Part shown: positions 23,828 to 25,732 of the stretch, in pieces
How positions within the stretch are numbered: the stretch's first letter is position 1
Layout of the letters: every line of letters starts with the position of its first letter
Assembly (NCBI RefSeq): GCF_058153355.1
Contig: NZ_CM177019.1
Length of the DNA: 64,000 bases
Reading direction: 5' to 3' (one strand)
Program-made: the position numbers and the translations under genes
Notes under the pieces: generated by a model
The model's input: the letters and a program-made list of their open reading frames with translations, nothing else
Databases searched by the model: none
What the model was told of the DNA's origin: nothing

Positions 23828-24517
23828 CTACTGGATCAGAAAATGACGGGCCAGCAGCGCACTGGTGAAATTCTTCTTCAAATAAAAGCCACGCGGCAGC
23901 GTCAGAATCCGTTCGCCCCGGGCACCAATGGCTTCGGTAAGCGCTTTCGCATTCGCTGCTTTCGGGCGTATCTGTAAATACTCCCCGTGACGAGCGGTGA
24001 TCCGCTCAACCTGACCGAGAACAATCATATCCATTAATTCTTCCCAGTCTTCGCGCAGTTGCCGGTCTTCCTCTTCATTCGGGCTCCATAGCAATGGTGA
24101 TCCTACGCGGCGCTGCGCTAGTGGGATGCTACGTTCGCCTTCAACCGGTATCCACAGCACGCGTTTGAGCTTGTGGCGCACGTGGCTGGTTTCCCAGGTC
24201 ACTCCACTATTGCCCGTTAATGGGGCAACACAAACGAATGTTGTTTCCAGCGGACGCCCAAGACTATCCACAGGAATAGTTTTAAGTTCCACACCCAGAG
24301 CAGCAAAATCTTGTTCTGGTTTACTCCCAGCACTGGCACCTAGCCAGATCTCCAGCAACACGCCGATCCAGCCCTTATCGCGTTTTAAATTCTCCGGCGT
24401 AACCAGCCCGGCAAGTGCCGCCAGTTCTCCCAGTGTATAACCGGAAAGTTGCTGTGCTTGCGCTAACAACTGTGCTTCTGTTTCGGGAGGAGAGAGCAGT
24501 GGGCGAGGTTGGGACAT
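23828..24517 (-). CDS. mutH: DNA mismatch repair endonuclease MutH
   Basis: 229-aa ORF matching MutH. Confidence 0.92.
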
Positions 24518-24599
24518 GTCGTGATACCTTGGTTAAAAAACAAACAGCTATTCTTTGCCGAATATTCGCAGTGTAACTTTTTCCACATGCGTTATTCAA

Positions 24600-25100
24600 T
24601 TCTATGATTTATATTGCTTTTTAGGTTTCTGATAATCCAGTTGCGCAACACTACAACGGGTTTTCCAAATCTGGTCACTGAAAATAAACAGGATCTTACA
24701 CCATGTTATCCACAGAAAGCTGGGATAACTGTGAAAAACCTCCACTACTGTTTCCATTTACAGCCTTGACGTGCGACGAAACTCCAGTTTTTAGTGGTTC
24801 AGTGCTTAACTTAGTGGCACATTCTGTGGATAAATACGGCGTTGGTTGATCTTTCGCCAACCTGTAAATGAGAGGTGTGACCAGGGTCACGAATTACTCC
24901 TTTTTATTACTTAAATTACATGTAATGCATTGACTGATAATGAATATTTTAAAATGTCTATATCGGGCTTATTCAGAATGCTCCGGGTTTTCCCGTAGTA
25001 ATTCCGTAGTTCTTCACAACTCTATCCACAGAAAAGGTGAATAAAAACGGCTATCCACCCCTTCCTCTGTTTATAACTCTGCACATAACTGTGAGTTATT
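24600..25100. promoter_or_regulatory. DARS2: DARS2-like DnaA-reactivating region (approximate bounds) with DnaA boxes
   Basis: Perfect DnaA boxes TTATCCACA at 24706-24714 (+) and 24825-24833 (complementary strand), and near-consensus CTATCCACA at 25022-25030, in the mutH-rppH intergenic region where DARS2 is described in K-12. Confidence 0.55.
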
Positions 25101-25201
25101 CAATTGTTATTAGTGTGTAATGCCCTGCAGAGAGTGGTTTACCGTCTTCATGGAGTATGAAACAATCATTCGTATATAAAGCTTTATTTTGAGGTAGTCC
25201 G

Positions 25202-25732
25202 GTGATTGATGACGATGGCTACCGCCCAAACGTAGGTATCGTGATTTGTAATCGCCAGGGGCAGGTAATGTGGGCCCGGCGATTTGGTCAGCACTCCTGG
25301 CAATTTCCGCAAGGCGGAATTAACCCAGGAGAATCCGCAGAACAGGCGATGTACCGTGAATTGTTTGAAGAAGTAGGATTAAGCCGCAAAGACGTTCGAA
25401 TCCTTGCTTCAACGCGTAACTGGTTGCGCTACAAATTACCGAAACGTTTGGTGCGTTGGGACACGAAGCCGGTTTGTATCGGCCAAAAACAAAAATGGTT
25501 TCTCTTGCAGCTGGTGAGCGGCGATGCAGAAATCAATATGCAAACCAGCAGTACACCAGAGTTTGATGGCTGGAGATGGGTAAGTTACTGGTATCCGGTC
25601 AGACAGGTGGTGTCATTTAAACGTGATGTCTACCGTAGGGTAATGAAAGAGTTCGCGAGTGTTGTGATGGCGCTGCAGGATAATACGCCAAAACCACAAA
25701 ACGCATCTGCTTATCGACGTAAAAGAGGTTAA
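25202..25732 (+). CDS. rppH: RNA pyrophosphohydrolase (Nudix), GTG start
   Basis: 176-aa ORF with Nudix box (…[23 protein letters not shown]…). Confidence 0.92.

What the first reader, a model, noticed from the sequence alone, without database searches (positions are those of the whole stretch)
24600..25100. DARS2-like DnaA-box cluster in the mutH-rppH intergenic region
Two perfect DnaA boxes in opposite orientation (24706-24714, 24825-24833) and a near-consensus box (25022-25030) lie in an unusually long non-coding gap. This is where the DnaA-reactivating sequence DARS2 lies in K-12. The 64-aa ORF called here in the six-frame track is more likely non-coding regulatory DNA.
Basis: partly seen in the sequence, partly recalled or inferred. 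Interest (0 to 1): 0.35.

Follow-up and report, generated by a model that had tools for sequence, protein, structure and literature searches.

The report
DARS2, the known DnaA-reactivating site
The DnaA-box cluster between mutH and rppH is the E. coli DARS2 locus, a well-studied non-coding DNA element that recharges the replication initiator DnaA with ATP, so the finding is correct but already known.

Summary
The window is E. coli. Its 684-bp mutH-rppH gap (24518-25201) contains the published 455-bp DARS2 fragment, bounded by the original cloning primers at 24613-25067. It differs from K-12 at 11 of 455 positions.

They are not the catalytic core. The IHF sites IBS1-2 (24923-51) are also identical.

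The only change in an essential part is A>G at 24841, inside Fis site FBS3 and low-affinity box V-b. A 61-base stretch (24786-24846) containing it is identical in 582 of 5,424 complete E. coli genomes, and Citrobacter and Enterobacter also carry G.

Published ChIP-seq in K-12 shows some of the strongest DnaA occupancy in the genome at these sequences.

Neither the 64-aa ORF nor the annotated 48-aa ygdT behaves like a coding sequence. Both are interrupted in related genera, and ygdT shows no third-codon-position bias.

The side observations are modest. Box VI, a CTGT-N8-ACAG palindrome and a box outside the fragment keep fixed positions across Enterobacterales, and both boxes do so as far as Vibrio. 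None of the three has an assigned function in the papers I could read.

The parts
24613..25067 (.). Published 455-bp DARS2 fragment
   Evidence: [quoted passage not shown] Table S1 map to these ends, exactly 455 bp apart. There are 11 differences from K-12.
25010..25044 (.). DARS2 core, the region removed in the Delta-core constructs
   Evidence: It is bracketed by primers MutH-15 (ends 25009) and MutH-14 (starts 25045). It is identical to K-12.
25010..25018 (+). DnaA box III, TTCTTCACA
   Evidence: One mismatch to TTWTNCACA. It has the same orientation as box II and lies 3 bp from it. It is half of the 'double DnaA box' gTTCTTCACAactCTATCCACAg bound in ChIP-seq.
25022..25030 (+).
25036..25044 (-). 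DnaA box I, TTATTCACC
   Evidence: It is oriented opposite to box II across the 5-bp spacer GAAAA, the head-to-head geometry described in PMC6868365.
24923..24951 (.). IHF-binding sites IBS1 (24923-35, +) and IBS2 (24939-51, -), 3 bp apart
   Evidence: The stretch matches exactly the IBS1-2 unit that was moved in the traIL/traIR oligos. Each 13-mer has one mismatch to TAAnnnnTTGATW. The PciI site ACATGT lies directly beside it, as in PMC11724364.
24834..24854 (.). The 'crucial 21-mer' holding Fis sites FBS2-3. The FBS2-3 unit is 24837-24858.
   Evidence: It is bracketed by primers MutH-25 and MutH-24. It matches K-12 at 20 of 21 positions. The A>G at 24841 lowers the FBS3 consensus match from 5/6 to 4/6.
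24825..24833 (-). DnaA box V, a perfect TTATCCACA that seeds the ATP-DnaA oligomer which displaces Fis
   Evidence: It is the sequence replaced by oligos Ksh-32/33 and by the subDnaA-box-V oligos.
24813..24855 (-). Span of the low-affinity boxes V-a (about 24813-21), V-b (24836-44) and V-c (about 24846-55) around box V
   Evidence: Inferred from the subV-a, subV-b and subV-c oligos in the Miyoshi 2021 supplement. The 9-mer registers are approximate.
24969..24977 (+). DnaA box IV, TTATTCAGA
   Evidence: It is the sequence replaced by oligos Ksh-30/31. It is not conserved outside close relatives.
24695..24714 (+). DnaA box VI (24706-14, perfect) with the weak partner box CTTACACCA (24695-703)
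   Evidence: Box VI is the sequence replaced by oligos Ksh-34/35. The pair is the 'double DnaA box' tCTTACACCAtgTTATCCACAg at the strongest DARS2 ChIP-seq peak. It sits in the same position in every genome compared.
24877..24907 (.). Fis site FBS1 region (dispensable)
   Evidence: Oligo FIS-1U maps here with 3 mismatches.
24635..24665 (.). Fis site FBS6 region (dispensable)
   Evidence: Oligo FIS-4U maps here with 2 mismatches.
24746..24765 (.). Conserved palindrome TACTGTTTCCATTTACAGCC (CTGT-N8-ACAG), with no function assigned in the papers read
25068..25076 (-). Extra DnaA-box-like 9-mer TTATAAACA, just outside the 455-bp fragment
   Evidence: One mismatch to the consensus. It lies at +58 from box III in every complete gap from E. 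coli to Vibrio.
24703..24849 (+). Annotated ORF ygdT (48 aa), probably not a real gene
   Evidence: PGAP annotates it. It is interrupted by stops or lacks a start in other genera, and shows no third-position bias.
24696..24890 (-).
23828..24517 (-). mutH (flanking gene)
25202..25732 (+). rppH, also called ygdP or nudH (flanking gene)

Best explanation
This is the E. coli DARS2 locus, a non-coding chromosomal element that converts inactive ADP-DnaA back into ATP-DnaA before each round of replication initiation. The mechanism below is established in K-12 and inferred here from sequence identity. ADP-DnaA binds core boxes III, II and I (25010-25044). The protomers on the inverted boxes I and II meet head to head across the 5-bp spacer and release ADP. 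IHF bound at IBS1-2 (24923-51) bends the DNA, so that Fis bound at FBS2-3 (24837-58) can act on the core complex and strongly stimulate the release. The freed apo-DnaA then binds ATP. As ATP-DnaA accumulates, it oligomerises outward from the perfect box V (24825-33) over the weak boxes V-a, V-b and V-c. This displaces Fis and switches DARS2 off. The two ORFs drawn over the region are most likely accidental open frames in constrained regulatory DNA.
For: The flanking genes are mutH and rppH, and the gap is 97% identical to K-12-type genomes and present in 5,424 of 5,426 complete E. coli genomes. The published primers and oligos place the 455-bp fragment, the Delta-core deletion, the IBS1-2 unit, the 21-mer and boxes IV-VI at exact window coordinates. 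None of the 19 differences from K-12 in the gap falls in boxes I-VI or IBS1-2. The core geometry matches the definition in PMC6868365: boxes I and II inverted with 5 bp between them, boxes II and III in tandem with 3 bp between them. DnaA ChIP-seq in MG1655 gives three peaks at DARS2 with 78-, 199- and 213-fold enrichment, on sequences identical to the window. The same core lies 153-171 bp upstream of rppH in the 15 other genomes, from Escherichia to Vibrio, whose fetched DNA reaches rppH; four further loci carry it next to mutH alone. The box cluster is far denser than chance.
Against: Nothing was measured in this strain. Its FBS3 and box V-b carry A>G at 24841, which removes a consensus T from both motifs. 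Activity or feedback strength could therefore differ from K-12. Against that, a 61-base stretch containing the G is identical in 582 of 5,424 genomes, and Citrobacter and Enterobacter also carry G. The dispensable sites FBS1 and FBS6 carry 3 and 2 changes.
Confidence: 0.95

Rival explanations
1. The DnaA boxes mainly serve ordinary transcriptional control of the divergent mutH and rppH-ptsP promoters, with DnaA acting as a repressor or activator rather than being reactivated.
For: The element fills a divergent promoter region. Conserved blocks extend beyond the 455-bp fragment toward both genes: the TTTTCCACA box at 24579-87, the box at 25068-76, and the blocks at 25135-65. DnaA is a known transcription factor.
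Against: Published deletion and in vitro work in K-12 shows nucleotide-exchange activity for exactly this DNA. The head-to-head geometry of boxes I and II is specific to DARS cores. The promoter scan found no more sites than shuffled sequence gives. The two roles are not mutually exclusive.
Confidence: 0.1
2. ygdT (24703-24849, +) is a genuine small-protein gene, and the DnaA boxes inside it are incidental or regulate it.
For: RefSeq annotates ygdT in E. coli genomes. The frame is open in Escherichia and in one Citrobacter.
Against: There are stop codons in Citrobacter werkmanii (codon 40), Enterobacter cloacae (codon 12), Enterobacter sp. Bisph1 (codon 37) and Photorhabdus (codon 10). No start codon is present in Yersinia, Providencia or Arsenophonus. 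A frame-shifting 1-nt indel occurs in Yersinia and Acerihabitans. Variable columns by codon position are 16/17/10, against 6/1/53 in rppH and 29/20/82 in mutH for mostly the same genomes. The conserved 'residues' coincide with box VI, the palindrome and box V. No NCBIfam family matches, and no functional literature was found.
Confidence: 0.04
3. The strong boxes V and VI act mainly as a DnaA titration sink, as is said of datA, rather than in reactivation.
For: They give the highest ChIP-seq enrichment at the locus, 199- and 213-fold against 78-fold at the core. The half containing box VI was dispensable for over-initiation from plasmids. Boxes V and VI keep a spacing of 118-120 bp from E. coli to Vibrio.
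Against: Box V has a demonstrated feedback role on Fis. Two boxes are a small sink compared with hundreds genome-wide. This would be an added role and would not replace DARS2 identity.
Confidence: 0.1
4. The cluster is a chance accumulation of AT-rich 9-mers in a long intergenic region.
For: Two perfect TTATCCACA sites in 64 kb is within what shuffles give.
Against: There are 8 boxes in 455 bp, against 1.44 in shuffles of the same DNA, and none of 2,000 shuffles reaches 8. The boxes are invariant and fixed in position across genera whose intergenic DNA is otherwise only 54-73% identical.
Confidence: 0.005

Closest known systems
DARS2 of E. coli K-12 (Fujimitsu 2009; Kasho 2014, PMC4245941; Miyoshi 2021, PMC8682772; Kasho 2025, PMC11724364)
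   Same: It has the same flanking genes and the same 455-bp extent. The core boxes I-III, IBS1-2 and boxes IV, V and VI are identical, and the order and spacing of all elements are the same.
   Different: There are 11 substitutions in 455 bp. One of them (A>G at 24841) lies in FBS3 and box V-b. The others lie in spacers or in the dispensable FBS1 and FBS6. The complete 684-bp gap is identical in only 1 of 5,426 complete genomes.
DARS1 (bioD-uvrB intergenic region)
   Same: It has the same three-box core geometry (III, 3 bp, II, 5 bp, inverted I) and the same ADP-release chemistry.
   Different: It lies at a different locus. Its core sequence type is different: TAATRCACA-NGG-TTATCCACA-GGAAT-RGTGGATAA in Enterobacterales. 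DARS1 needs no IHF or Fis.
datA
   Same: It is also a non-coding cluster of DnaA boxes with an IHF site that changes the nucleotide state of DnaA.
   Different: datA promotes ATP hydrolysis on ATP-DnaA, the opposite direction. It lies beside glyVXY-queG and lacks the inverted box I/II pair.
oriC
   Same: DnaA boxes, IHF and Fis sites are combined in one element, with comparably strong ChIP-seq occupancy.
   Different: No replication starts here. The boxes used at oriC for oligomerisation are arranged head to tail, and the flanking genes are different.

Membership tests
DARS2 | Lies in the mutH-rppH (ygdP) intergenic region | tested here: met
   mutH is at 23828-24517 (-) and rppH at 25202-25732 (+). 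RefSeq annotation of matching genomes agrees. The literature places DARS2 upstream of mutH.
DARS2 | [quoted passage not shown] | tested here: met
   The primers map to 24613 and 25067, which is 455 bp. Of these, 444 are identical to K-12.
DARS2 | Core of three DnaA boxes: I and II inverted with a 5-bp spacer, II and III in tandem | tested here: met
   The core reads TTCTTCACA-ACT-CTATCCACA-GAAAA-GGTGAATAA at 25010-25044. It equals the Delta-core interval and is identical to K-12.
DARS2 | IHF sites IBS1-2: two 13-mers 3 bp apart, between the core and the Fis sites | tested here: met
   The 29-bp unit at 24923-24951 matches the published unit exactly.
DARS2 | Fis sites FBS2-3 within the crucial 21-mer | tested here: inconclusive
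   The 21-mer matches at 20 of 21 positions. A>G at 24841 lowers the FBS3 match to GnnYAnnnnnTRnnC from 5/6 to 4/6. A 61-base stretch (24786-24846) containing the G is identical in 582 of 5,424 genomes. Frimodt-Moller 2015 reports FBS-3 variants with reduced consensus identity in 4 of 59 strains. The effect on Fis binding is unknown.
DARS2 | Full-consensus DnaA box V flanked by low-affinity boxes V-a, V-b and V-c | tested here: met
   Box V is perfect at 24825-33. The V-a and V-c regions are unchanged from K-12. V-b carries the same A>G, at a consensus T.
DARS2 | DnaA, IHF and Fis occupancy in vivo | not testable with these tools
   DnaA ChIP-seq peaks of 78-, 199- and 213-fold exist for MG1655 on identical sequences. 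There are no data for this strain.
DARS2 | IHF- and Fis-dependent exchange of ADP for ATP on DnaA | not testable with these tools
   This is a biochemical activity shown only for the K-12 sequence.
DARS2 | Conserved relative distance from oriC | not tested
   The 64-kb window does not contain oriC. The position in the matching genome was not examined.
DARS1 | Lies in the bioD-uvrB gap and has the DARS1-type core sequence | tested here: not met
   The flanking genes are mutH and rppH. The core is the DARS2 type (GAAAA spacer, GTGAATAA box I), not the DARS1 type.
LexA SOS box (for the palindrome at 24746-24765) | CTGT-N8-ACAG palindrome | tested here: met
   CTGTTTCCATTTACAG is at 24748-24763, one of two such matches in 64 kb against 0.75 expected. 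CTG(T/G)-N8-ACAG is kept at the same position in all 12 Enterobacterales loci that include this stretch.
LexA SOS box (for the palindrome at 24746-24765) | Heterology index in the range of functional boxes | tested here: inconclusive
   The index is 12.4 in E. coli, worse than all 27 reference boxes (2.2-11.6) and similar to the best background hits in the window. It is 8.1-11.3 in Arsenophonus, Enterobacter sp. Bisph1, Photorhabdus, Providencia, Citrobacter and Enterobacter cloacae. The matrix was built from boxes recalled from memory, so the values are approximate.
LexA SOS box (for the palindrome at 24746-24765) | The critical CTG half-site is kept wherever the element is kept | tested here: not met
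   At the homologous position Vibrio has ATG(T/G)-N8-ACAG.
Protein-coding gene (ygdT and the 64-aa ORF) | Open frame and start codon conserved, with variation concentrated at third codon positions | tested here: not met
   Stops, missing starts and a frameshift occur in other genera. Variation by codon position is 16/17/10, against 6/1/53 for rppH and 29/20/82 for mutH. There is no NCBIfam hit.

The most novel reading that the evidence does not exclude
The mutH-proximal 'right half' of DARS2, which was dispensable in multicopy-plasmid assays, may be a separate position-locked regulatory module. It contains box VI with its weak partner box, a CTGT-N8-ACAG palindrome followed by TTGAC about 42 bp further on, and a constant 118-120 bp from box VI to box V. 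It is the best-conserved part of the gap across Enterobacterales, and the box VI-box V spacing holds as far as Vibrio. The boldest version is that the palindrome is a weak LexA site, which would couple DNA damage to DnaA reactivation. That would echo DARS1, which sits beside the LexA-controlled uvrB promoter.
Probability: 0.12. Interest if true: 0.55.

Novelty: already known. Interest (0 to 1): 0.15.

Why it matters
DARS2 is the main in vivo source of regenerated ATP-DnaA, and it sets the timing of chromosome replication in E. coli. Recognising it here prevents the region from being read as a small-protein gene or as an unexplained motif cluster. The useful by-products are a base-level map of every published DARS2 site in this strain and the identification of a common natural allele in FBS3 and box V-b. 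There is also comparative evidence that ygdT is probably a spurious annotation. Finally, conserved elements remain that have no assigned role in the papers I could read: box VI, the palindrome and the +58 box.

Tried and rejected
An Rfam scan of 24300-25400 at E<=1 found nothing, so no known RNA family explains the conservation.

The promoter and terminator scan found two weak +-strand promoter-like sites at 24580-24636, no more than shuffles give, and no terminators.

An NCBIfam scan of ygdT and the 64-aa ORF found no family.

A literature search for ygdT found only gene lists and no functional study.

Searches linking LexA to DARS2 or mutH, and for the literal palindrome sequence, found nothing relevant. 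The LexA ChIP-chip paper (PMC1276735) is not held, and the supplement of the 2025 DARS2 paper is not held.

I considered a sigma-70 promoter using the conserved TTGACG at 24766-71. No acceptable -10 hexamer lies 16-18 bp downstream, so this stays unsupported (read directly from the sequence).

I considered CRP, TyrR, Fis and LacI-family sites for the palindrome by eye, from consensus sequences I recalled. The spacing or the half-sites do not fit.

The Frimodt-Moller 2015 deletion primers, as printed, both lie on the same strand, which is inconsistent with a recombineering design. I used only their positions, which agree with the Kasho Delta-core primers.

Full report
WHAT IS IN THE SEQUENCE

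The window carries mutH on the minus strand (23828-24517) and rppH followed by ptsP on the plus strand (25202 onward). The non-coding gap between them is 684 bp. The gap is present in 5,424 of 5,426 complete E. coli genomes. It is 100% identical to one of them (strain 2020CK-00188) and about 97% identical to the others sampled, including a K-12-type chromosome.

TTATCCACA is at 24706-14 (+) and 24825-33 (-), and these are the only two perfect copies in 64 kb. CTATCCACA is at 25022-30.

Two perfect copies in 64 kb is not significant alone. The density is. Eight sites with at most one mismatch to TTWTNCACA fall in 455 bp. The window's average density predicts 0.82, and dinucleotide shuffles of the same 455 bp give 1.44. 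None of 2,000 shuffles reaches eight, and no other 455-bp stretch of the window comes close.

IDENTIFICATION AS DARS2

I mapped oligonucleotides printed in the DARS2 papers onto the window.

[quoted passage not shown] That is exactly 455 bp.
- The Delta-core primers MutH-15 and MutH-14 bracket 25010-25044. This stretch reads TTCTTCACA-ACT-CTATCCACA-GAAAA-GGTGAATAA: box III, 3 bp, box II, 5 bp, inverted box I. This is the geometry that defines DARS cores.
- The IBS1-2 unit that was moved in the translocation experiments matches 24923-24951 exactly. The PciI site reported beside the IHF site lies directly to its left.
- The crucial 21-mer is 24834-24854, and the FBS2-3 unit is 24837-24858.
- The oligos used to substitute boxes IV, V and VI identify them as 24969-77, 24825-33 and 24706-14.

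Of the 19 differences from K-12 in the gap, 11 lie inside the 455 bp. None touches boxes I-VI or IBS1-2.

THE ONE CHANGE IN AN ESSENTIAL PART

A>G at 24841 lies in the 21-mer. On the published strand it changes GATCAACCAATGCCG to GATCAACCAACGCCG. This removes the consensus T of Fis site FBS3, lowering the match from 5/6 to 4/6. It also removes the consensus T of low-affinity DnaA box V-b (CAATGCCGT).

The change is not private to this strain. The 61-base stretch 24786-24846, which contains the G, is identical in 582 of 5,424 genomes. Citrobacter and Enterobacter also have G at this column. Frimodt-Moller et al. had already noted FBS-3 variants with reduced consensus identity in 4 of 59 strains. 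Whether the change alters Fis binding or the ATP-DnaA feedback cannot be decided from sequence.

IN VIVO BINDING

Published DnaA ChIP-seq in MG1655 reports three peaks at DARS2, with 78-, 199- and 213-fold enrichment. These are among the strongest in the genome. They are associated with the 'double DnaA boxes' gTTCTTCACAactCTATCCACAg (core III and II) and tCTTACACCAtgTTATCCACAg (box VI with a weak partner). Both strings are present unchanged in the window, at 25009-25031 and 24694-24715.

MECHANISM

This account is taken from the K-12 literature and inferred here from sequence identity.

- ADP-DnaA assembles on boxes I-III.
- The protomers on the inverted boxes I and II interact head to head and release ADP.
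- IHF at IBS1-2 bends the DNA, so that Fis at FBS2-3 can stimulate this step.
- Apo-DnaA rebinds ATP.
- Rising ATP-DnaA then oligomerises from box V across V-a, V-b and V-c and evicts Fis, which closes a negative feedback loop.

COMPARATIVE EVIDENCE

A degenerate pattern for the core geometry was scanned against one genome per species. Among the hits, 19 loci outside E. coli carry the core next to rppH and/or mutH. They come from E. albertii, Citrobacter, Enterobacter, Superficieibacter, Acerihabitans, Yersinia, Providencia, Photorhabdus, Arsenophonus, Vibrio and Enterovibrio.

The core ends 153-171 bp upstream of rppH in every locus whose fetched DNA reaches rppH.

Positions measured from the first base of box III are as follows:

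| Element | Enterobacterales | Vibrio |
|---|---|---|
| Box VI | -301 to -304 | -311 to -313 |
| Box V | -182 to -186 | -191 to -193 |
| Box II | +12 | +12 |
| Box I | +26 | +26 |
| Extra box-like 9-mer (TTATAAACA in E. coli, 25068-76) | +56 to +58 | +58 |

The extra 9-mer lies outside the 455-bp fragment.

The distance from box VI to box V is 118-120 bp in all 18 genomes where both are visible. Whole-gap identity meanwhile falls to 73% with Citrobacter and 54% with Yersinia. Box IV is not conserved.

THE ORFS

The annotated gene is in fact the 48-aa plus-strand ygdT (24703-24849). Neither behaves as coding sequence.

- ygdT has in-frame stops in Citrobacter werkmanii, Enterobacter cloacae, Enterobacter sp. 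Bisph1 and Photorhabdus.
- It has no start codon in Yersinia, Providencia and Arsenophonus.
- A 1-nt indel shifts the frame in Yersinia and Acerihabitans.
- The minus-strand ORF is broken in Citrobacter and Enterobacter.
- Across Escherichia, Citrobacter and Enterobacter, the variable columns in ygdT fall 16/17/10 on codon positions 1/2/3. The flanking controls give 6/1/53 (rppH) and 29/20/82 (mutH) for mostly the same genomes.
- The conserved 'peptide' stretches LST, FTALT and VDK are simply box VI, the palindrome block and box V.
- No NCBIfam family, Rfam family or functional paper supports a product.

WHAT REMAINS UNEXPLAINED

The half of DARS2 nearer mutH was dispensable for over-initiation from a multicopy plasmid. 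It is nevertheless the best-conserved part of the gap.

Besides box VI and its partner, it holds the block ACTACTGTTTCCATTTACAGCCTTGAC (24744-70). This block contains a CTGT-N8-ACAG palindrome, fixed at -259 to -262 in all 12 Enterobacterales loci that include this stretch.

The palindrome has the form of a LexA box, but the support is weak.

- Its approximate heterology index is 12.4 in E. coli. That is worse than all 27 reference boxes I could recall and close to the best background hits in the window. It is 8-11 in several other genera.
- At the homologous position Vibrio has ATG(T/G)-N8-ACAG, which lacks the critical C.
- I found no paper connecting LexA with this locus.

I therefore treat LexA as a low-probability lead.

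The only two GATC sites in the gap (24692 and 24848) are also conserved. One lies just outside box VI and the other inside FBS2 and V-c, and both are kept as far as Vibrio.

VERDICT

The finding is real, correctly interpreted and already known. Its value is as a precise annotation. The remaining interest lies in the conserved but unassigned elements and in the natural FBS3 and V-b allele.

Noticed in passing
window 24744-24770: The conserved block ACTACTGTTTCCATTTACAGCCTTGAC contains a CTGT-N8-ACAG (LexA-box-like) palindrome. It holds the same position in all 12 Enterobacterales loci that include this stretch. At the same place Vibrio has ATGK-N8-ACAG. The papers I read assign it no function.
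   Followed up: partly
window 24706-24833, and loci L014, L018, L024, L034, L047, L051, L055, L057, L068, L070, L086, L098, L099, L106, L110, L119, L121: The start-to-start distance between DnaA boxes VI and V is 118-120 bp in all 18 genomes examined, including four Vibrio. The sequence between the boxes diverges beyond recognition in Vibrio.
   Followed up: yes
window 25068-25076 and 25091-25099: A DnaA-box-like 9-mer, TTATAAACA (-), lies just outside the published 455-bp fragment. It is found 56-58 bp from the start of box III in every complete gap from E. coli to Vibrio, and is a perfect box in some Vibrio. A second conserved block, CTGTGAGTTAT, follows it.
   Followed up: partly
window 24579-24587 and 24730-24738: Two further exact matches to TTWTNCACA are not among the named boxes I-VI. 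TTTTCCACA (+) lies between the DARS2 fragment and mutH. TTTTTCACA (-) lies between box VI and the palindrome. Four of the eight exact matches in the 64-kb window lie in this one gap.
   Followed up: partly
window 24692-24695 and 24848-24851: These are the only two GATC (Dam) sites in the 684-bp gap. One sits just outside box VI and the other inside FBS2 and V-c. A GATC is kept at both places from E. coli to Vibrio.
   Followed up: partly
window 24841: A>G relative to K-12 removes a consensus T from both Fis site FBS3 and low-affinity DnaA box V-b. The 61-base stretch 24786-24846, which contains the G, is identical in 582 of 5,424 complete E. coli genomes.
   Followed up: yes
window 24518-24660: Twelve of the 19 differences from K-12 cluster in the 136 bp next to mutH (24521-24653), and seven of them match the E. 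albertii base. The whole gap is identical in only 1 of 5,426 complete genomes. This suggests an unusual or recombinant allele at the mutH-proximal end.
   Followed up: partly
window 24597-24612, and the homologous position at about -413 in other genera: The block AATAGCATGATTTA (TCAATTCTATGATTTAT in the window) is conserved just left of the DARS2 fragment. It matches the IHF consensus within one mismatch in Yersinia, Photorhabdus, Acerihabitans and Citrobacter. It could equally be part of the mutH promoter.
   Followed up: no
Hits include Pseudomonas, Xanthomonas, Legionella (five in one genome), Nitrosomonas, Neisseriaceae and other gamma- and beta-proteobacteria. The unconstrained positions follow the DnaA-box consensus. 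Enterobacterales genomes carry two distinct core types, DARS1-like and DARS2-like.
   Followed up: partly
window 25135-25165: The blocks TGGTTTACCG and GTGTGAAACAATCA, 40-70 bp upstream of rppH, are conserved from E. coli to Yersinia. They presumably belong to the rppH promoter or leader.
   Followed up: no
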